DNA of 64,000 nt, from NCBI GenBank assembly GCA_016214655.1, contig JACROC010000005.1, positions 195,078 through 259,077 on the forward strand, in the 5' to 3' direction. The stretch comes from Candidatus Harrisonbacteria bacterium (GTDB lineage: Bacteria > Patescibacteriota > Minisyncoccia > UBA6257 > 02-FULL-45-10c). The position numbers and the translations under genes are program-made. The notes under the pieces are model-generated. The model had not been told where the DNA came from. It searched no databases and saw only the letters and a program-made list of their open reading frames with translations. Shown piece after piece: positions 891-10,950 of this stretch. The first letter of the stretch is position 1; every line of letters begins with the position of its first letter.

Positions 891-2477
891 TTATTCTATT
901 TTTATCGTAACCTTTCTAGGGTTAGTAGGTACGGTCTTAACATAAAACGGCCAAAGAGACACAGTGGCGCTCTTTAGGCCCGGCAAGGCAAAAACAGTAG
1001 TTTTAAGCTCAATTTCTGATTTACCGAGTATTTTAGATTTCAATTCCTCAGCGTTAATGCGCTTTGCCAGAATAGCTTTAAAATTCACTGGAAAAGTAAG
1101 GAGGCCGCGGTCGAAATCCGCTCTAGCTAATTCATAATCTAAAGTATTTTCTCTCATATCCAAATCTTCTCCATTATCGCGCTTAGCGCGTTTATCCAAT
1201 AACTCCTTAAGGTCATTCTCCTTAAACGCAATAATCGTCATTTGAGCCTCACTGAAAATTCCAAATGATCCGCCCTCATCAGTTTCCGAATCCACTTTTT
1301 GTTCCAGAACCTTATATCTGGTAGAGCCGTCCAAAACTTTAAATTCTTTTGGAATCTGCATTAAAAGCACAGTCTTAACTGAATCCTCCAGAGCAGCCTG
1401 AGCTTTTTCTTTTGCATTCTTGATATCGCTGTCCGTCGGATAAGCTACCTCCCCGATAAATCCGCCAGTCATATTGCCAGTGGATTCGCCATAAAATGAT
1501 TGATACTTTGGCGTACCCTTAAATCCGGGAATGGTAAACAATTTTACCGGACCGATATTATAATCCGGACCAGGTTTGTCAGCTGACACTTCGGTGTCAA
1601 TACTGGATGGAACTATCTTTCCTTCAACAATCTTGGCGCCCGGAACCGTAATGGTCTTAGTTAAACGATAAATTTTACCGTCCGGCGTAATAAACCTAGT
1701 CTGTTCCACCAACGGCTGAGGATCGGAGCTATAGCTGTTAAACACCGTTATCGTGCCGCCGGCTTTTCTTTCAACTTGCCTCCTGCCAGTAGCCGGAAAC
1801 TTCAGCTGAACATTCTTCTTCTCAGAAAAAACCTGGTTCGGGATAGTCATTTTAACCGGATCCAAAACTGCCGCTTTATCCGTAATAATTGAATCGTTAT
1901 ACGACCACTCCTGCGTTTGGGCGACAATAACCACAGTTGCACTTGGTAAAATTTTCAACAGATTAAACCCAAACACCGCAACAGTGAAAATCACGAATGC
2001 CCAGATAAAAAAACGCGGGCGGAATTCGGTGGCCGGAAGAGTAAATTCCGGCGGCGCGATCTCCGGTAATCTGAATTTCCATGACTTATCACTTTCCGGC
2101 ATCACCGGCTCTTCCACTGGCAACCTTTCTTCGGCTTCTTCCTGGAAAACTTTGGCAGCTGGCTTTCTTTTGGTAATTTTTACGGCTTTAGGCGCAACAA
2201 TATCGGAAAATTGCCTTTTAGTTTTAGCAAAAAACGGATTAAGCGCAGTAAGGCCGCTCATTTCCGCCAGCTCCACTATATGATCATCTACTGATTCTAT
2301 GCTGATTTTTTTCCCCAGAGCATCCGCTTCCCGTTTTAAAAGATGAAAATTACTGAGCGATTCGCCAAGATGAGAAAAACGGGGAATATTTAAAACTATC
2401 TCCTCGTCCGGAGCTTCAATAATCTTTTCAACGATAATTGCTATTTCGTCACTTTTATTTACGGAAATCTTCTTCAT
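891..2477 (-). CDS. Conserved CPR membrane-anchored protein with baseplate-J-like extracellular region
   Basis: Cytoplasmic N-terminus, single TM (FFIWAFVIFTVAVFGF), then KAGGTITVFN..TRF..ADKPGPDYNI..FTIPG..MTGG pattern; adjacent to FtsA-like gene. Confidence 0.65.
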   Translation of the reverse strand: MKKISVNKSDEIAIIVEKIIEAPDEEIVLNIPRFSHLGESLSNFHLLKREADALGKKISIESVDDHIVELAEMSGLTALNPFFAKTKRQFSDIVAPKAVKITKRKPAAKVFQEEAEERLPVEEPVMPESDKSWKFRLPEIAPPEFTLPATEFRPRFFIWAFVIFTVAVFGFNLLKILPSATVVIVAQTQEWSYNDSIITDKAAVLDPVKMTIPNQVFSEKKNVQLKFPATGRRQVERKAGGTITVFNSYSSDPQPLVEQTRFITPDGKIYRLTKTITVPGAKIVEGKIVPSSIDTEVSADKPGPDYNIGPVKLFTIPGFKGTPKYQSFYGESTGNMTGGFIGEVAYPTDSDIKNAKEKAQAALEDSVKTVLLMQIPKEFKVLDGSTRYKVLEQKVDSETDEGGSFGIFSEAQMTIIAFKENDLKELLDKRAKRDNGEDLDMRENTLDYELARADFDRGLLTFPVNFKAILAKRINAEELKSKILGKSEIELKTTVFALPGLKSATVSLWPFYVKTVPTNPRKVTIKIE

Positions 2478-5847: not shown

Positions 5848-7404
5848 TTACTGCAATACTCTCTGTATCAACGGCTGAGAGGCGCGCTGAGCTTCTGTTT
5901 CCTCCGCTAATTTACGCAGTAAATTCTTCAAAGATTGTTCGGTATCTAGGAGTAAAGCTTTGACGTCTTTTAAAACCGCCATTATTGAATCGGGTTTGGC
6001 ATTTTTAGTTTTTAAATCCGAAAGATTCGCCAGAGATTTTTCAGCTGAAGTTAAAAGTTTGAAAAGCTCCGGCGAATTTTCCGAAGTCAAACCGTTTCTC
6101 CCCGAATCATATGAAATCCGGTCAAAATCTGTTTTTAAATTCCTGAGCAAATTTTCTAAATTGCCATAATCAATCAATTGCCGCAAGGCATTTCTTGCCG
6201 CGGCCGCCGCAATACTAGCCTGACCAAAGGCATTTGCGTACTGCGAATTACCAAAAGAGTCTTTTGCCTGCTTAAGATTAAATTCACTCAAAGAAAACAG
6301 GGCATCGGTGGATTGGCTTCTTAAATTCGCTTCAACGATCTTTTCTTTAAGCAATCTGGCCAAATTTTCCACATCATTCATCAATCTTTCCGCTTCTGAT
6401 TTACCGATGCTCCGACTGCGGGAAGCCAACTCTAAAATTAGTTGGCGAATCACACCTAAATCATTCTTTAGTTCGGAATCAGCCAAATACTCCCTTACTT
6501 CGTCCAAAACTTTTATTCTCCGCCAGGCATCTCCGGGTAATTGCTGAAATACCGCCGGCAAAGTAGAACTTAGATTTTCAGCGCCGATTTTCATTTGTAT
6601 TTTTAAGAACAAATCTTCTTTAAGCGCCAAAACTACCTCCCGCGCTTTGGAATTGTAAGGAGTTTTATCCTCTACCCGATCCAACCGCTCCAAGGCGCGG
6701 AATTCTTTAAATACTCCTCCCCCGCCTTGATCTACAACAGCTAAAAACCGTGAACGGAAACTCTCCGGGGAATCAAGATATGCCAAAGTATCTGCGATAA
6801 TTTCGCTAATACGGCTTTGTAAAGAATCCAGTTTTTCTTTATTTCGCGCATCACTTTTTAATTTCAAAACATCGAATAAACTCAAGTGTTTTAAGCTGCG
6901 ATCCAAAAGTTTATTCAATAATCTATCAACACCAGCATTGGAACTGTCCTCTTTAATTGACTTTAAAAGAGCCGGCAGACGATCTAAATTTTCTTTATAC
7001 ATTTCAAGCGCCTTAGCCAAAGCAACTTCGTTATCAGGTAAAATTTCTTCCAACCGCTTCAACTCTGCAGCTTTTTCATTTAAGAAGTCTAACTCTAAAT
7101 CAGCTTTTTGAACCGGGTTTATCTTAAATACCCTTTGAGTAGACCGCCGCCAATTCTTCATGAAATAAAAAGGATTAGACTGTAAAAGCCCCGGATCTTC
7201 TATCCCCAGATCTTCTAATTTGACAGCCTCTTGGGCAACCAGCCTCAAAACCAGGCTATTTTCAGGATTAATCTCTCCTTGAGCCAAACTGACCGCCGGA
7301 ACCAAAACAAGGCTGAAAATGGCGGTTTTTATGGCTATTTTACATATAAATTGTCGTTTACCCATGTTTCCAATATAAAAACCCTTATTTAACAGGGTCC
7401 TCAC
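5848..7404 (-). CDS. DUF5667-like secreted helical protein
   Basis: Signal peptide-like segment then DPGLLQSNPFYFMKNWRR..KA..EKAAE; true start may be downstream. Confidence 0.65.
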   Translation of the reverse strand: MRTLLNKGFYIGNMGKRQFICKIAIKTAIFSLVLVPAVSLAQGEINPENSLVLRLVAQEAVKLEDLGIEDPGLLQSNPFYFMKNWRRSTQRVFKINPVQKADLELDFLNEKAAELKRLEEILPDNEVALAKALEMYKENLDRLPALLKSIKEDSSNAGVDRLLNKLLDRSLKHLSLFDVLKLKSDARNKEKLDSLQSRISEIIADTLAYLDSPESFRSRFLAVVDQGGGGVFKEFRALERLDRVEDKTPYNSKAREVVLALKEDLFLKIQMKIGAENLSSTLPAVFQQLPGDAWRRIKVLDEVREYLADSELKNDLGVIRQLILELASRSRSIGKSEAERLMNDVENLARLLKEKIVEANLRSQSTDALFSLSEFNLKQAKDSFGNSQYANAFGQASIAAAAARNALRQLIDYGNLENLLRNLKTDFDRISYDSGRNGLTSENSPELFKLLTSAEKSLANLSDLKTKNAKPDSIMAVLKDVKALLLDTEQSLKNLLRKLAEETEAQRASQPLIQRVLQ

Positions 7405-7475
7405 ATATATTTTCCCGATTAATTAACTCCTTATTTACTTACAATTAGTATAACATATCAGATACTAAAAAGCCA

Positions 7476-7513
7476 GTAAAAAGAAAGCCCCCTCAACTAC
7501 CAGAAGAGGGGGC
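7476..7513 (-). terminator. Intrinsic terminator ending the unknown RNA
   Basis: gccccctc (7487-7494)/gagggggc (7506-7513) stem followed on the minus strand by TTTCTTTTT. Confidence 0.8.
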
Positions 7514-7927
7514 GGCGAGCGCCTCGTTTGTCGCTGGTCTCTGATAACCAGCCTAGTCCCGTCGGACTGAGACACTCTAAGGAGCTTATTTGGTTAGATC
7601 GCGCGTACTCCCTATGTCAACCACGCGCGACCAGGAACGCTTACCAGGTGGTCAGAAGACCTGGCGTATCTGTGAGCTGTCTCCCGTGCCCTGCACGAGA
7701 TAACAACCAGGATGCGCTCCACGGTAATACGGATGGGTTTTTCGCTAGGTGGCAACCCAGCTAAAGCAACCTCACGCGTTGCTTTCCTCCCACCGCCCCA
7801 TAATGATCCCTCTTTGAGAAACCACGCTGGAACCAGATTCCAAACTGATGCCTCGGTCCGGTGCCAATGAAGGTACTACAGTCTAGCCGGGGCGCCCCTT
7901 GCGGAGCCTTCCGTCAGCTTCGACAAA
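7480..7927 (-). ncRNA. Candidate large structured ncRNA, family unknown
   Basis: GC-rich intergenic region with many hairpins, end pairing TTTGTCG/CGACAAA, own promoter and terminator. Confidence 0.7.
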
Positions 7928-7930
7928 TTA

Positions 7931-7959
7931 AATATAGCATATAATCCAATTCTTGTCAA
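7931..7959 (-). promoter_or_regulatory. Sigma70 promoter TTGACA-17-TATATT with extended -10 TG
   Basis: -35 at 7959-7954 overlaps the rpoD stop codon; -10 at 7936-7931. Confidence 0.8.
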
Positions 7960-9194
7960 TACCCCTCAATTGTGTGCGATTTGCCGTGCTGACGGATGCG
8001 GCTGAGAGCCTTCGCTTCAATCTGGCGGATGCGCTCGCGGGTGACTGCAAACTCCTTTCCTACTTCTTCCAAAGTATGGGTAATTCCATCCTCCAGACCA
8101 AAACGCATCTGAAGAATTTTCTGCTCTCTCGGAGTCAGGTCAACTAAAATTTCTTTGATCCTTTCCCGAAGTAAAGTTTGGGATGCTACCTGCGAGGGAG
8201 TAAGGCTGTGAGTATCTTCAATAAATTCGGACAAAGTTGATTCGTCGTCATCTTCGCCAACCGGCGCCTCAAGCGAAACCACTTCCTGGGAAATTTTCTG
8301 GATATGATGAACCTTCTCCACCGAAATATTCATTTCAATGGCAATTTCTTCCGGCAAAGGATCACGCCCCAATTCCTGCATTAAATGCCGCTTAGCTTGG
8401 GTATATTTAGAAATAGTTTCCACCATATGGACCGGAATACGGATAGTTCTGGATTGGTCAGCAAGAGCGCGGGTAATAGCCTGGCGAATCCACCAGGTTG
8501 CATAAGTAGAAAATTTAAAACCCCGGCGGTAATCAAATTTTGTAACTGCCCTGGCAAGGCCGATATTGCCCTCCTGAACAAGATCTAAAATACTGAGATG
8601 CGGAGTCCTGTTGACGTAGCGCTTGGCAATAGAAACTACCAGCCGGAGATTGGCTTTAATAAATTGCTGGCGGGCCTCTTCATCCCCCTTCTCAATTTTT
8701 TTAGCCAATTCCCGTTCCTGTTCCTGTTTCAAAAGCTCAGTCTTGCCGATCTCTTTAAGATATTGCTGGACTGAATCCGGCAGCTCTCCCTCAAAATGAG
8801 TCGCTTTTTCTAATTCCTTTTTGCTGATTTCATCTTTAGGAAGCTCGATTAACTGGCTGGTTTCCAAAACCTTAATATTAGCGGTCTCCAGCCGGTTATA
8901 AATTTCCTCCAAAAAAGCGACGTCGTCTTCCACGCGCGGAAAATAATGGAGCACTTCCGTATCCGTCACAAAACCACGGCTCTTTCCGCGGTCAATCAAT
9001 TCATTTAAAGCCTCCTCTTCAGCCATAGCTTTCTTCTCGCCCCCCGCTACTTTCTTCGCAGCCACGTTCTTTAAAATTTTCTTTATCTTTTTGATTTTCT
9101 TAGCCTTCTTGGTTTTTTTAACCTTCTTAAGTTTCTTTTTCAGCTTTTTAATTTTTGGCTTTTTTATTTTTTTATTTTTCTTCTTTTTGCTCAT
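7956..9194 (-). CDS. rpoD: RNA polymerase primary sigma factor (probable start MSKKKK at 9194)
   Basis: [66 protein letters not shown]. Confidence 0.97.
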
Positions 9195-9207
9195 AAAATA
9201 AGACAAT

Positions 9208-10950
9208 TTATGCATTATGTAACTCTTTAGATATATTAGCAAACTCCCGCATCGCCGCCTGGAGCTTATTCTCATCGCCCTCTCCCTCCAGTATTTTAAT
9301 TAAATCGCTGATTTCCTGCCTTTTATCCTTTAAATATTCAACCCTTAATTCCCGTAAAAGGTTCCTCATTTCTTTCTTCAGATTTTCAACGTCAAAATCC
9401 TGATTTTCAAAGCTAAAACGCAAGCTAATAGAATTCATGAAATCTCCCAAATCTGATGATACATTCACGCCTTTATTTAAAAGTAAGTCCCGATAGATAG
9501 TAAGGTATTGTTCTGGGAAATATTTAAGGTGGTCTTCAATGGTCTGCATATCATTTTGCAGATGCAGCATCACCCCCAGAAGCCTTTGCGAAATCAATTC
9601 CCGGCGAGACAATTTTTGGCTTACACTAACTGCCGGTGCGCCCGCCGGAACTATAGCCTCGGCCACGCCAGCCGGCGTCAATATTTCCATTTCTTCAGCC
9701 AAAACCCGCTCATCGATTCTAGCAATTTTAGAGAGCTGATTAAGCCAATGGCTCCGCTCAATCGGACTGGAAAGATTTTTAATCTTGGCGAGCACTACCC
9801 GCAGATTCTGCTTTTTAGCTTTAATGTCAGTGGACGCATTATTAAAATATTTATAAAAATAATAATCCATTGCAGACTTTGCGCCGCCAAGCAAATCTTT
9901 GATTTTACCGGGCTGTTCTCTGACTACATCTGCCGGATCTTTAAATTTTGCATCTTCAATTACCAAAAGTTTCACCGCGAAATCATGCGCTCCCGCCAAA
10001 TCAATACTTCTCTCCGCGGCTATCTGCCCTGCCAGATCAGCATCAAAACTTAACACCACCTCATCAGCTAATCTCCGCAAAACCGCCAAATGATCTTGGG
10101 TCAGAGCAGTCCCGGAGGTAGCTACAGCGTTTTTAATTCCATCCTGCCAGACCATCAGAAAATCCATCTGTCCCTCAACTAAAACTGCAGTTTTAGCCTC
10201 ACGAATATCACTCTTAGTTCTATGAAATCCATATAAAATTTTAGATTTCTGAAAAACCGGGGTTTCCGGACTATTTACATATTTGCCAACGTTAGGATTA
10301 TTATTTCCCGGCAGGATTCTGCCGGTGAATGCAACTACTTTGCCAAAATGATTATAAATCGGAAACATTATGCGGCCACGGAACCTATCCCAATAAGTTC
10401 CCCGCTCGGTTTTAATTGCCAAGCCGGCTTTTTCAATATCCAAAATATTATAGCCAAGTTTTAAAAGATGGTGCGTCAGTATATCAGAACCGTCCGCAGC
10501 AAAACCGATTTCAAACTCCTGAACAGTTTCATCTTTTAATCCCCGCTCCCTCAAATAATTTCTAACTAAGTCGGACTTCACAAGATTAGATCTAAAGAAA
10601 TTTTTAGCCGCCTCCATTACGGCATATAAAGAATTATAAGATTTAAAATCACGATTGCCGGAGGTCTTAATGTCCACGCCGGCTTTTTCCGCCAAAACCT
10701 TTAAAGCATCATAAAATTCCAAATTCTCATATTTCATCAAAAACTTTATGATGTCACCGCCTTCATTGCAGGCGCCAAAACAATGCCAGGATTGCCGTTC
10801 CGGCGAAACCATAAAAGACGGAGTTTTCTCTTTATGGAAGGGGCAGCACGCTTTCATATTTTTACCTGCCGGCTTCAGCTGGACATACGGCCGCAAAAAA
10901 TCCACAATATCTAACTTTTCCTTTATAAGTTGGGCTGTATCAGAAGACAT
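9208..10950 (-). CDS. dnaG: DNA primase
   Basis: [11 protein letters not shown] zinc finger, [24 protein letters not shown]. Confidence 0.98.

What the first reader, a model, noticed from the sequence alone, without database searches (positions are those of the whole stretch)
7476..7959. Unnamed ~450-nt structured RNA gene directly downstream of rpoD
Seen: near-consensus promoter (TTGACA-17-TATATT with TG extension, -35 built on the rpoD stop codon) and a strong terminator. The ends pair (TTTGTCG 7527-7533/CGACAAA 7921-7927). Internal helices are dense: 7533-38/7547-52, 7599-7606/7623-30, 7644-49/7659-64, 7763-70/7778-85. The region is GC-rich in an AT-rich genome and has no credible ORF. It lacks RNase P (GAGGAAAGUCC), tmRNA tRNA-like ends and SRP signatures. 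Inference: a stand-alone large ncRNA retained in a minimal genome, possibly a new class.
Basis: partly seen in the sequence, partly recalled or inferred. Interest (0 to 1): 0.8.

Follow-up and report, generated by a model that had tools for sequence, protein, structure and literature searches.

The report
Orphan structured RNA gene after rpoD
A GC-rich stretch of about 445 bases right after the sigma-factor gene rpoD of a tiny Saccharibacteria genome is a conserved, non-coding, base-paired RNA gene that matches no catalogued RNA family, is found in only three related lineages, and likely acts as a compactly folded free-standing RNA whose job is still unknown.

Summary
A near-consensus promoter sits on the rpoD stop codon and an intrinsic terminator closes a minus-strand unit of about 445 nt. 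It is 56.7% GC in a 41.9% GC genome.

It has no Rfam match, even at E<=10. RNase P RNA and tmRNA lie elsewhere in the genome. The genome lacks Ffh and FtsY, so no SRP RNA is expected.

Homologs exist in three lineages only: the window, two identical metagenome contigs with the same synteny, and one family member at a different locus. Covariance-model and BLAST searches of about 550 other Saccharimonadia genomes found none.

On the three sequences:
- 95% of 276 pair cells are paired, against 30-38% in slid controls.
- 11 pairs changed on both sides.
- G·U pairs outnumber A·C 26 to 4.
- The core is 91% identical where rpoD DNA is 79%.
- Substitutions show no codon periodicity.

It is therefore a real structured ncRNA of a new, narrow family. 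It is an insertion between rpoD and a DUF5667 gene, not a "retained" housekeeping RNA. The same genome holds several more cassettes with the same strong promoter and GC-rich transcripts.

Function is inferred only: a trans-acting folded RNA or RNP. Earlier scan notes describe similar orphan RNA cassettes in other Saccharibacteria, on other DNA.

The parts
7931..7959 (-). Sigma-70-type promoter, TTGACA-17-TATATT with TG extension. The -35 hexamer overlaps the rpoD stop codon. The predicted start is near 7925.
   Evidence: One search gives 11 of 12 matches. The same layout is kept in L018 (CTGACA-17-TATATT, TG). The identical promoter type occurs at 9 other places in the genome.
7478..7925 (-). 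Predicted RNA transcription unit of about 445 nt. The ends are inferred from the promoter and terminator, not measured.
   Evidence: G·U pairs outnumber A·C 26 to 4 over 276 pair cells, which favours the minus strand as sense.
7868..7925 (-). Variable 5' leader. It includes a hairpin capped by a GCAA loop.
   Evidence: Apart from one 7-base word, BLAST aligns nothing of this leader with L018. The first-reader 'end helix' 5' strand (7921-7927) lies here and is not conserved.
7514..7867 (-). Conserved core of 354 nt, alignable in all three lineages.
   Evidence: Alignment A4. From column 82 on, identity to L018 is 90.9% and to G021 69.0%. The rpoD DNA is 79.3% identical to L018.
7841..7860 (-). 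Helix Ha, 8 bp with a GGCA loop.
   Evidence: 4 pairs vary on one side and 23 of 24 cells are paired. RNAalifold predicts it independently.
7791..7827 (-). Variable peripheral hairpin. It is replaced by another sequence in L018 and absent in G021.
   Evidence: A further variant is seen as a loose end of a contig in run X3.
7763..7785 (-). Helix Hb, 8 bp, with a loop ending in the invariant GUGAG.
   Evidence: 3 pairs changed on both sides.
7744..7761 (-). Helix Hc, 6 bp, with the invariant loop UUGCCA.
   Evidence: 1 pair changed on both sides and all cells paired.
7677..7710 (-). Helix Hd, a two-part hairpin with an AGG loop.
   Evidence: helices 7 and 8: 1 pair changed on both sides and 4 on one side. 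The lower register is uncertain.
7634..7720 (-). Long-range helix Hj (7714-7720 with 7634-7640), enclosing Hd and He.
   Evidence: 2 pairs changed on both sides, but only 85.7% of cells are paired. G021 fits better with a one-column shift (my reading). This is the weakest helix.
7644..7664 (-). Helix He, 6 bp, with a loop holding the invariant UCUGACC.
   Evidence: 1 pair changed on both sides.
7597..7632 (-). Helix Hf, 11 bp and G+C-rich, with a loop ending in the invariant GGGAG.
   Evidence: 10 of 11 pairs never vary, so this helix says nothing either way. A contig of run X2 shows a variant of its 3' strand.
7517..7577 (-). 3' three-way junction. It comprises closing helix Hg (7570-7577 with 7517-7524), hairpin Hh (7555-7568), hairpin Hi (7533-7552, loop UUAUCAGAGA) and junction strand GACAAA.
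   Evidence: Hi has 3 pairs changed on both sides and Hg has 4 pairs changed on one side. RNAalifold predicts the same junction.
7540..7656 (-). Predicted loop-loop contact of UCUGA (7652-7656, He loop) with UCAGA (7540-7544, Hi loop). Two more predicted contacts are UGGCA 7862-7866 with UGCCA 7750-7754, and GUGAG 7771-7775 with CUCAC 7672-7676.
   Evidence: Complementary in all three sequences but with almost no variation: 14 of 15 pairs never vary and one changes on one side (helices 1, 4 and 10). These are inferred only, and 5-base matches of this kind are expected by chance at roughly one per RNA of this size (my estimate).
7478..7509 (-). Intrinsic terminator: a stem of 7 or more pairs, then CUUUCUUUUU.
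   Evidence: L018 and G021 end with terminators of different sequence at the same relative place.
7447..7455 (-). Predicted extended -10 (TGTTATACT) of the downstream DUF5667 gene's own promoter, which marks the 3' border of the insert.
   Evidence: Sequence reading. The same element follows rpoD directly in G001 (L021), which has no RNA. The scanner did not call it because there is no -35.

Best explanation
This is a real non-coding RNA gene of about 445 nt that folds into at least ten conserved helices and belongs to no catalogued family. It is predicted to be transcribed from its own strong promoter, and by read-through from rpoD, and it likely works in trans as a compactly folded RNA or RNA-protein particle rather than as a switch for a neighbouring gene.

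Shown:
- Promoter and terminator signals.
- Conservation above that of the neighbouring essential gene.
- Pairing kept through compensatory changes.
- No conserved reading frame.
- No match to any known family.
- Presence in three lineages at two different loci.
- Insertion into an otherwise short, conserved spacer.

Inferred:
- Transcription and the exact ends.
- Three loop-loop or loop-junction contacts that would compact the fold.
- Action in trans.
- Any partner or chemistry.

It is one of several cassettes in this genome that combine the same consensus promoter with a GC-rich, tightly folded transcript.
For: 1. Signals. Promoter 11 of 12 with TG extension, and a terminator. Both are kept in L018. 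A terminator of unrelated sequence is kept in G021.

2. Selection. From alignment column 82 on, the core is 90.9% identical between the window and L018 (24 differences in 265 columns). BLAST gives 91.6% over 261 nt. The adjacent rpoD DNA is 79.3% identical, with 162 of 225 differences at third codon positions.

3. Structure.
- 93 pairs in 14 helices, with 95.3% of 276 cells paired, against 29.7-38.1% when partners are slid.
- 11 pairs changed on both sides, against 0-3 in slid controls and 4.7 +/- 1.7 in shuffles (0 of 500 reach it).
- Between the window and G021, 28 nested pairs changed and 22 stayed paired. Of the 11 that changed on both sides, 10 stayed paired.
- RNAalifold finds most of the hairpins unaided.
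- Fold z = -4.35.

4. Strand. 26 G·U cells against 4 A·C cells.

5. Non-coding. Substitutions fall 7/10/6 by position modulo 3. Indels of 1, 1, 2, 3 and 6 bases occur. Stop-free frames shift between homologs.

6. Not a known RNA. No Rfam hit. RNase P RNA lies at C3:6586-6939 (112.9 bits) and tmRNA at C7:71724-72096 (125.5 bits).

7. Stand-alone.
- In G021 it sits between a small CxxC protein gene and an M50 protease gene, not near rpoD.
- In the window and L018 the downstream gene keeps its own -10 element after the RNA's terminator.

8. Cassette context. 10 sites in the genome carry the TTGACA...TG(C/T)TATA(A/C/T)T promoter type that the pattern allows. 5 of them are followed by 250 bases of 51-57% GC. 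These include a second ORF-poor unit of about 470 nt with a terminator at C3:5466 and small GC-rich ORFs.
Against: - No RNA data: transcription, ends and abundance are unmeasured.
- Only three distinct full-length sequences exist. All 11 two-sided changes separate G021 from the other two, so they amount to one comparison. I also drew the structure from these same sequences, which favours it in the controls.
- Between the window and L018, only 8 of 12 changed pairs stay paired, and both pairs that changed on both sides are broken.
- Helix Hj and the lower part of Hd are uncertain in register.
- The tertiary contacts never vary and may be chance.
- The patchy distribution (2 of 23 family genomes) and a GC content well above the genome's own RNase P RNA and tmRNA fit a horizontally moving or dispensable element as well as a cellular function.
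- No partner protein or target was identified.
- G021's copy has no recognisable promoter of its own and may be the 3' part of an mRNA.
Confidence: 0.6

Rival explanations
1. It is cargo of a mobile or horizontally exchanged cassette (promoter, GC-rich RNA, terminator). It spreads or is gained and lost among Saccharibacteria, with little or no function for the cell.
For: - It is found in 2 of 23 family genomes and in 1 of 5 species of genus g11, at two unrelated loci.
- It is an insertion into a spacer that is short in most relatives.
- G019 carries an unrelated promoter-to-terminator GC-rich insert of about 230 nt at the same spot.
- GC is 56.7%, against 45.8% and 40.5% for the genome's RNase P RNA and tmRNA.
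- In G021 the RNA and the preceding small gene form one island of 59-61% GC.
Against: - No integrase, transposase, terminal repeats or target duplication flank it (sequence reading).
- No match in phage records, plasmid records or viral contigs.
- There is a single copy per genome.
- The core is under stronger constraint than rpoD DNA, which a functionless passenger would not show.
Confidence: 0.15
2. It is a 6S- or Ms1-like RNA that binds RNA polymerase and tunes sigma-factor use, which would explain its place beside rpoD.
For: - It lies directly after rpoD in two of three lineages.
- No 6S RNA was detected anywhere in the genome.
- It has a strong promoter.
Against: - No match to the 6S model.
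- The fold is multi-branched, with ten local helices, not a long rod with a central bubble.
- It is about twice the usual 6S length.
- The G021 copy is not near rpoD.
- A polymerase regulator would be expected in most relatives, not in 2 of 23.
Confidence: 0.07
3. It is a cis-acting element: a long structured 3' UTR or terminator region of the dnaG-rpoD operon, or a leader or riboswitch for the DUF5667 gene.
For: - No terminator lies between the rpoD stop and the RNA, so rpoD transcripts would run into it.
- It ends in a terminator about 75 bases before the next gene.
Against: - It has its own near-consensus promoter.
- The downstream gene keeps its own -10 element and leader hairpin after the terminator, as in relatives without the RNA.
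- In G021 both neighbours are different genes.
- 18 of 21 rpoD loci in the family lack it.
- No riboswitch family matches.
Confidence: 0.07
4. It is a divergent copy of a universal RNA (RNase P RNA, tmRNA or SRP RNA), or it encodes small proteins.
For: - The size is right for RNase P RNA or tmRNA.
- No SRP RNA was detected in this genome.
- Long stop-free frames exist in the GC-rich sequence.
Against: - RNase P RNA and tmRNA are found elsewhere, above their cut-offs.
- The genome has no Ffh M domain and no SRP54-type GTPase, while SecY is found by the same method. So no SRP RNA is expected.
- It is present in 2 of 23 family genomes.
- Frames are not conserved and substitutions show no periodicity.
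Confidence: 0.02

Closest known systems
Orphan large structured bacterial ncRNAs found as long GC-rich intergenic regions (OLE, ROOL, GOLLD, raiA motif RNAs). These names are recalled; the Breaker-lab GC-IGR papers PMC11109978 and PMC8632094 were seen as search listings and term searches only.
   Same: - A stand-alone gene several hundred nucleotides long.
- Many conserved helices with conserved loops.
- GC-rich in an AT-rich genome.
- No coding potential and unknown biochemical function.
- Complementary conserved loops that could build a compact or multimeric fold.
   Different: - No sequence or structure match to any Rfam model at E<=10.
- A far narrower distribution (three lineages of one Saccharibacteria family).
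- No associated protein genes or prophage context.
- The two papers do not mention Saccharibacteria, TM7, Patescibacteria, candidate phyla or rpoD in their main text.
6S RNA and Ms1 RNA (RNA polymerase-binding RNAs)
   Same: An abundant-type promoter, a non-coding transcript, and a genomic link to the transcription machinery (next to rpoD in two lineages).
   Different: A branched rather than rod-like fold, no 6S model match, a length of about 445 nt, and absence from most relatives.
Bacterial RNase P RNA (type A)
   Same: A similar size (the genome's own copy is 354 nt), a multi-helix fold and long-range loop contacts.
   Different: - The true RNase P RNA is at C3:6586-6939.
- This RNA gets no RNase P score at E<=10.
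- The GAGGAAAG-like word in the window is not kept in G021.
Other orphan promoter-to-terminator GC-rich RNA cassettes noted by this scan in Saccharibacteria (AI notes e1-1307326, e1-1023780, e1-2064582, e1-2053504, e1-2742864, e1-1288140)
   Same: The same architecture (consensus extended -10 promoter, GC-rich folded non-coding body, terminator), the same phylum, a lineage-restricted distribution and no Rfam family.
   Different: - They are different sequences. A word search with this RNA found only its own stretch.
- This case has cross-lineage homologs with compensatory changes, which several of those lacked.

Membership tests
Any Rfam 15 family (4227 models) | A covariance-model score at or above the gathering threshold, or at least E<=10 with permissive filters | tested here: not met
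   (gathering) found only 4 tRNAs in the whole window. One search (E<=10 on 7350-8050) found one chance hit on the opposite strand (17.1 bits against a cut-off of 70). One search found nothing on the homologs L018 and L011.
RNase P RNA, bacterial type A (RF00010) | A match to the model, and being the genome's only RNase P RNA | tested here: not met
   The genome's RNase P RNA is at C3:6586-6939 (112.9 bits). This locus has no score.
tmRNA (RF00023) | tRNA-like ends and a tag reading frame | tested here: not met
   ARAGORN finds no tmRNA in the window. The genome's tmRNA is at C7:71724-72096 (125.5 bits).
SRP RNA (RF00169, RF01854) | A domain IV hairpin matching the model, and an Ffh partner present in the genome | tested here: not met
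   No model hit at E<=1 in the genome. There is no Ffh M domain and no SRP54 GTPase domain, and no tblastn hit with the one Ffh-like ORF from relative G007.
6S RNA (RF00013) | A rod-like hairpin of about 180-200 nt with a large central bubble | tested here: not met
   No model hit. The consensus fold is branched, with 10 or more local helices.
6S RNA (RF00013) | Binds the sigma-70 holoenzyme and templates product RNAs | not testable with these tools
   This needs co-purification with RNA polymerase.
Riboswitch or cis-regulatory leader | Lies in the 5' UTR of the regulated gene, with no promoter between it and that gene, and with the same gene class downstream in homologs | tested here: not met
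   The downstream gene keeps its own -10 element after the terminator. The downstream gene is DUF5667 in two lineages and an M50 protease in G021.
Structured ncRNA gene (generic) | Pairing kept through compensatory substitutions across homologs | tested here: met
   11 pairs changed on both sides and 95.3% of cells are paired. Of 28 pairs changed between the window and G021, 22 stay paired. Caveats: there are three sequences, and the structure was drawn from them.
Structured ncRNA gene (generic) | A discrete transcript of the predicted size and strand | not testable with these tools
   No RNA run is listed for this DNA; see Tried and rejected.
Mobile element (IS, intron, retron, phage or plasmid cargo) | A linked recombinase, reverse transcriptase or integrase; terminal repeats; multiple copies; or presence in phage or plasmid records | tested here: not met
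   The neighbours are alaS, DUF5667, rpoD and dnaG. There is a single copy. No phage, plasmid or viral-contig match was found.

The most novel reading that the evidence does not exclude
The RNA is a ribozyme-grade, self-compacting or self-assembling RNA, held together by three invariant loop contacts. It belongs to a Saccharibacteria-specific repertoire of fast-turning-over, very strongly transcribed GC-rich RNAs and mini-genes. That repertoire would have a shared role in these SRP-less epibionts, for example at the interface with the host bacterium, rather than a housekeeping role.
Probability: 0.12. Interest if true: 0.85.

Novelty: new variant of a known kind. Interest (0 to 1): 0.52.

Why it matters
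Large, intricately folded bacterial RNAs without a known job are rare, and several have turned out to be ribozymes, RNP cores or RNA-only assemblies.

This one adds a new family from the Candidate Phyla Radiation, where almost no non-coding RNAs beyond the universal ones have been described. It comes with enough homologs to give a first secondary-structure model.

The wider pattern may matter more. This genome, and by earlier scan notes other Saccharibacteria, carry several lineage-specific cassettes that pair the strongest promoter type with GC-rich, tightly folded transcripts. That suggests a class of rapidly evolving, highly expressed RNAs in ultra-small epibiotic bacteria.

The narrow distribution limits its general importance until a function is found.

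Tried and rejected
- Exact-motif scan of 185,579 species genomes. It found G021 plus two other loci. The covariance model showed that one lies inside a coding region and the other shares only the hairpin. Both were taken as chance.
- Metagenome motif scan. It found two contigs carrying the same RNA (L018 = L019).
- Viral contigs. One motif gave 0 hits and another gave 3 hits that the model rejected.
- blastn against phage and plasmid records found nothing.
- BLAST of the core against 400 other genomes of the class found only two 23-base hits at E of about 5e-4 to 7.5e-4. I took them as chance. One of the two genomes (G036) was also negative with the model.
- Sequencing runs. No RNA holder is listed, so expression could not be examined.
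- Contigs of four DNA runs gave only pieces of 33-196 bases. One is identical to the window, one is L018-like and two are further variants. They were too short to add rows to the alignment.
- G019's RNA-like insert at the same spot looked similar to the window RNA's first 80 bases by eye. BLAST found nothing beyond 7-base words, so I treat it as unrelated.
- The small protein gene upstream of the G021 copy is real, with 7 proteins (one is G021's own) that align well.
- That gene is not in the window's genome. It is also absent from viral contigs and from a 401-genome sample of the phylum, so it gave no further RNA loci.
- A GC-rich RNA-like unit of about 225 nt at C5:82189-82384 was considered as a divergent SRP RNA. 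It has no Rfam hit and no BLAST match in the other 22 family genomes.
- The rpoD tree did not resolve whether the window and L018 are sisters.
- An internal promoter-like match in L018 and G021 is not kept in the window.
- Literature. Searches listed no paper describing this RNA. I saw listings and abstract starts only, plus term searches in two papers.

Full report
**What is there**

On the minus strand, the stop codon of rpoD (ORF 7956-9275, with all five sigma-70 regions) is embedded in a TTGACA hexamer. This hexamer, a 17-base spacer and TG-TATATT make an 11-of-12 promoter at 7959-7931.

About 445 bases further on lies an intrinsic terminator, with a stem at 7509-7488 followed by a T run.

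The stretch between is 56.7% GC in a 41.9% GC genome. It is also well above the genome's own RNase P RNA (45.8%) and tmRNA (40.5%).

It folds 4.35 standard deviations better than dinucleotide shuffles.

The fifth, the pairing of the two ends, is perfect only in this genome.

**What it is not**

- cmscan against the 4227 Rfam families gives nothing at the gathering scores. With permissive filters at E<=10 it gives one 17-bit chance hit on the other strand. The homologs give nothing either.
- ARAGORN sees only four tRNAs in the window.
- The genome's RNase P RNA (C3:6586-6939, 112.9 bits) and tmRNA (C7:71724-72096, 125.5 bits) lie elsewhere.
- The small and large SRP RNA models and the 6S model hit nothing in the genome at E<=1.
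- For SRP there is a simple reason. The genome has no Ffh M domain and no SRP54-type GTPase domain. SecY is found by the same method.

**Relatives**

- BLAST over 60 relatives found one real homolog, on a 2.3-kb contig of G021, a Saccharibacteria MAG of the same family but another genus.
- The metagenome scan added two contigs with an identical copy (L018 = L019).
- In L018 the synteny is the same: rpoD, then the RNA, then DUF5667.
- In G021 the RNA lies between a small conserved CxxC protein gene and an M50 protease gene.
- A covariance model of the 3' 181 columns (R1) found the RNA in 2 of 23 family genomes. It found only the window's own copy among 151 genomes of the order and among 151 of the class.
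- A model of the middle 160 columns (R2) found it in 2 of 41 relatives.
- BLAST of the core against 400 other genomes of the class found only two 23-base chance hits.
- The exact-motif scan of 185,579 species genomes found only G021 plus two chance loci.
- Phage, plasmid and viral collections hold nothing.
- Short DNA contigs from four coded runs (two groundwater, one biofilm, one unspecified metagenome) hold pieces: one identical, one L018-like and two further variants.
- These genome sets are samples, so the RNA is 'not found in those searched', not proven absent.

**It is an insertion**

- Across the family the order rpoD then DUF5667 is conserved.
- In 15 of the 18 loci that show both genes, the spacer is at most about 120 bases (derived from the tblastn coordinates; an example is).
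- Two loci have about 160-210 bases.
- G019 has about 545 bases that hold a different promoter-to-terminator, GC-rich, well-folding unit of about 230 nt. That unit has no BLAST similarity to this RNA or to any other family genome.
- In the window and in L018 the DUF5667 gene keeps its own extended -10 element and leader hairpin after the RNA's terminator, as in G001, which lacks the RNA (my reading).
- The rpoD tree leaves the window, L018, G001, G011 and G008 unresolved. One gain and several losses therefore cannot be told apart.

**Evidence that it is a functional structured RNA**

Conservation:
- Window against L018, the core from alignment column 82 on has 24 differences in 265 columns, or 90.9% identity. 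BLAST gives 91.6% over 261 nt.
- The adjacent rpoD DNA is 79.3% identical, with 162 of 225 differences at third codon positions.
- The 5' 68 bases and one internal hairpin (7791-7827) are free to change or to be lost.

No coding signal:
- Substitutions fall 7/10/6 by position modulo 3.
- Indels of 1, 1, 2, 3 and 6 bases occur.
- The long stop-free frames of this GC-rich sequence sit in different frames in different homologs.

Pairing, on the three-sequence alignment A4 with a structure of 93 pairs in 14 helices:
- 95.3% of 276 cells are standard pairs, against 29.7-38.1% with partners slid by 1-3 columns.
- 11 pairs changed on both sides, against 0-3 in slid controls and a mean of 4.7 in shuffles (0 of 500 reach 11).
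- Between the window and G021, 28 nested pairs changed and 22 stayed paired. Of 11 changed on both sides, 10 stayed paired.
- G·U cells outnumber A·C cells 26 to 4, which fits the minus strand as sense.
- RNAalifold predicts most of the hairpins without my input.

**Limits of that evidence**

- There are three sequences, and every two-sided change separates G021 from the other two.
- I drew the structure from these same sequences.
- Between the window and L018, 4 of 12 changed pairs are broken.
- Helix Hf never varies.
- The register of Hj and of the lower part of Hd is uncertain.

**Anatomy**

- After a variable leader, the core runs 7867-7514.
- It holds hairpins Ha, Hb (loop ending GUGAG), Hc (loop UUGCCA), Hd and He (loop with UCUGACC).
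- The long-range helix Hj encloses Hd and He.
- The G+C-rich hairpin Hf follows, then an A-rich linker.
- A 3' three-way junction (Hg, Hh, Hi) has the loop UUAUCAGAGA and the junction strand GACAAA.
- Three pairs of conserved single-stranded words are complementary: UGGCA with UGCCA, GUGAG with CUCAC, and UCUGA with UCAGA.
- They would tie the 5' end to Hc, Hb to the strand after Hd, and He to Hi.
- 14 of these 15 pairs never vary and one changes on one side, so they are predictions only. Matches of this length are not rare by chance.

**Context in the genome**

- The promoter type (TTGACA, 12-14 bases, TG(C/T)TATA(A/C/T)T, as the pattern allows) occurs at 10 places in the 0.91-Mb genome.
- 5 of the 10 are followed by 250 bases of 51-57% GC.
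- These are this RNA, a second ORF-poor unit of about 470 nt with a terminator (C3:5466), a long GC-rich non-coding stretch before a tRNA (C7:48331), and two small GC-rich ORFs.
- A further unit of about 225 nt with a variant promoter lies at C5:82189-82384. It has no Rfam hit and no BLAST match in the other 22 family genomes.
- Earlier notes of this scan describe the same kind of cassette in other Saccharibacteria. I used them as leads and checked only the pattern in this genome.

**Reading**

- Most likely (0.6 for the whole statement; about 0.8 that it is a genuine structured ncRNA gene of a new family): a stand-alone RNA that acts in trans as a folded RNA or RNP.
- The rivals are a horizontally exchanged cassette of little use to the cell (0.15), a 6S-like polymerase binder (0.07), a cis element of rpoD or DUF5667 (0.07), and a divergent universal RNA or small protein genes (0.02).
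- The function itself is not shown by anything I could run.

**Novelty**

- It is a new RNA family of a known kind, the orphan large structured bacterial ncRNA.
- Four literature searches listed nothing on it. The two GC-IGR survey papers do not mention Saccharibacteria, TM7, candidate phyla, Patescibacteria or rpoD in their main text. Their supplements were not read.

Noticed in passing
Whole genome G000 (outside the finding); relatives G001-G060: The SRP pathway was not found. The own genome has no SRP RNA (RF00169 and RF01854 at E<=1), no Ffh M domain (PF02978) and no SRP54-type GTPase domain (PF00448; Ffh or FtsY), while SecY is found. RF00169 hit 0 of 23 family genomes. PF00448 passed its cut-off in 2 of 61 genomes of the order: G007, whose hit is split into two pieces, and a marginal 23.6-bit P-loop hit in G030. 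Two literature searches (listings, and passages of one paper) showed no statement on this. If it is real, an SRP-less bacterial order would deserve its own follow-up.
   Followed up: partly
L029 (G019:C8) 1030-1262, minus strand: At the same place, between rpoD and DUF5667, a genus-g11 relative carries a different GC-rich unit of about 230 nt. It has the same promoter type and a terminator, and it folds well (z = -3.98). It has no Rfam family above threshold and no BLAST match in the other 22 family genomes.
   Followed up: partly
G000:C3:5466-5990 (+), outside the window: A second large ORF-poor GC-rich unit of about 470 nt lies behind an almost identical promoter and ends in a strong terminator. 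Only a sub-threshold Rfam hit was found (36.5 bits against a cut-off of 64).
   Followed up: partly
G000:C5:82189-82384 (+), outside the window: A promoter-to-terminator unit of about 225 nt (56% GC) with no Rfam hit and no BLAST match in the other 22 family genomes.
   Followed up: partly
G000:C5:127500-127690 and C8:14500-14690; L013 (G011) about 1160-1290: A dispersed GC-rich structured repeat with shared ends (a word like GUGCGGCAA.UACGGA at one end and GCCGGUGCCGGUAGGCA at the other) occurs at least twice in this genome and once in a relative, between unrelated genes (by eye).
   Followed up: no
G000:C7:45761 (-) and C7:148833 (+), outside the window: The same strong promoter type also drives small, very GC-rich ORFs (about 110 and 44 codons) with Shine-Dalgarno sites and terminators. 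So the GC-rich cassettes are a mix of RNA-like and mini-protein units.
   Followed up: no
Window 7405-7446 (minus strand), and L021 1380-1460: A conserved hairpin followed by a U run lies between the DUF5667 gene's -10 element and its start codon, in genomes with and without the RNA insert. It could be an attenuator or leader of that gene (by eye).
   Followed up: no
L011 (G021:C101) 1838-2110, minus strand: A conserved protein of about 89 aa, with a CxxC motif, an HKPCG motif and a Trp/Arg-rich tail, has no Pfam family. It is found in a few CPR metagenome contigs and lies directly upstream of the G021 copy of the RNA within the same GC-rich island.
   Followed up: partly
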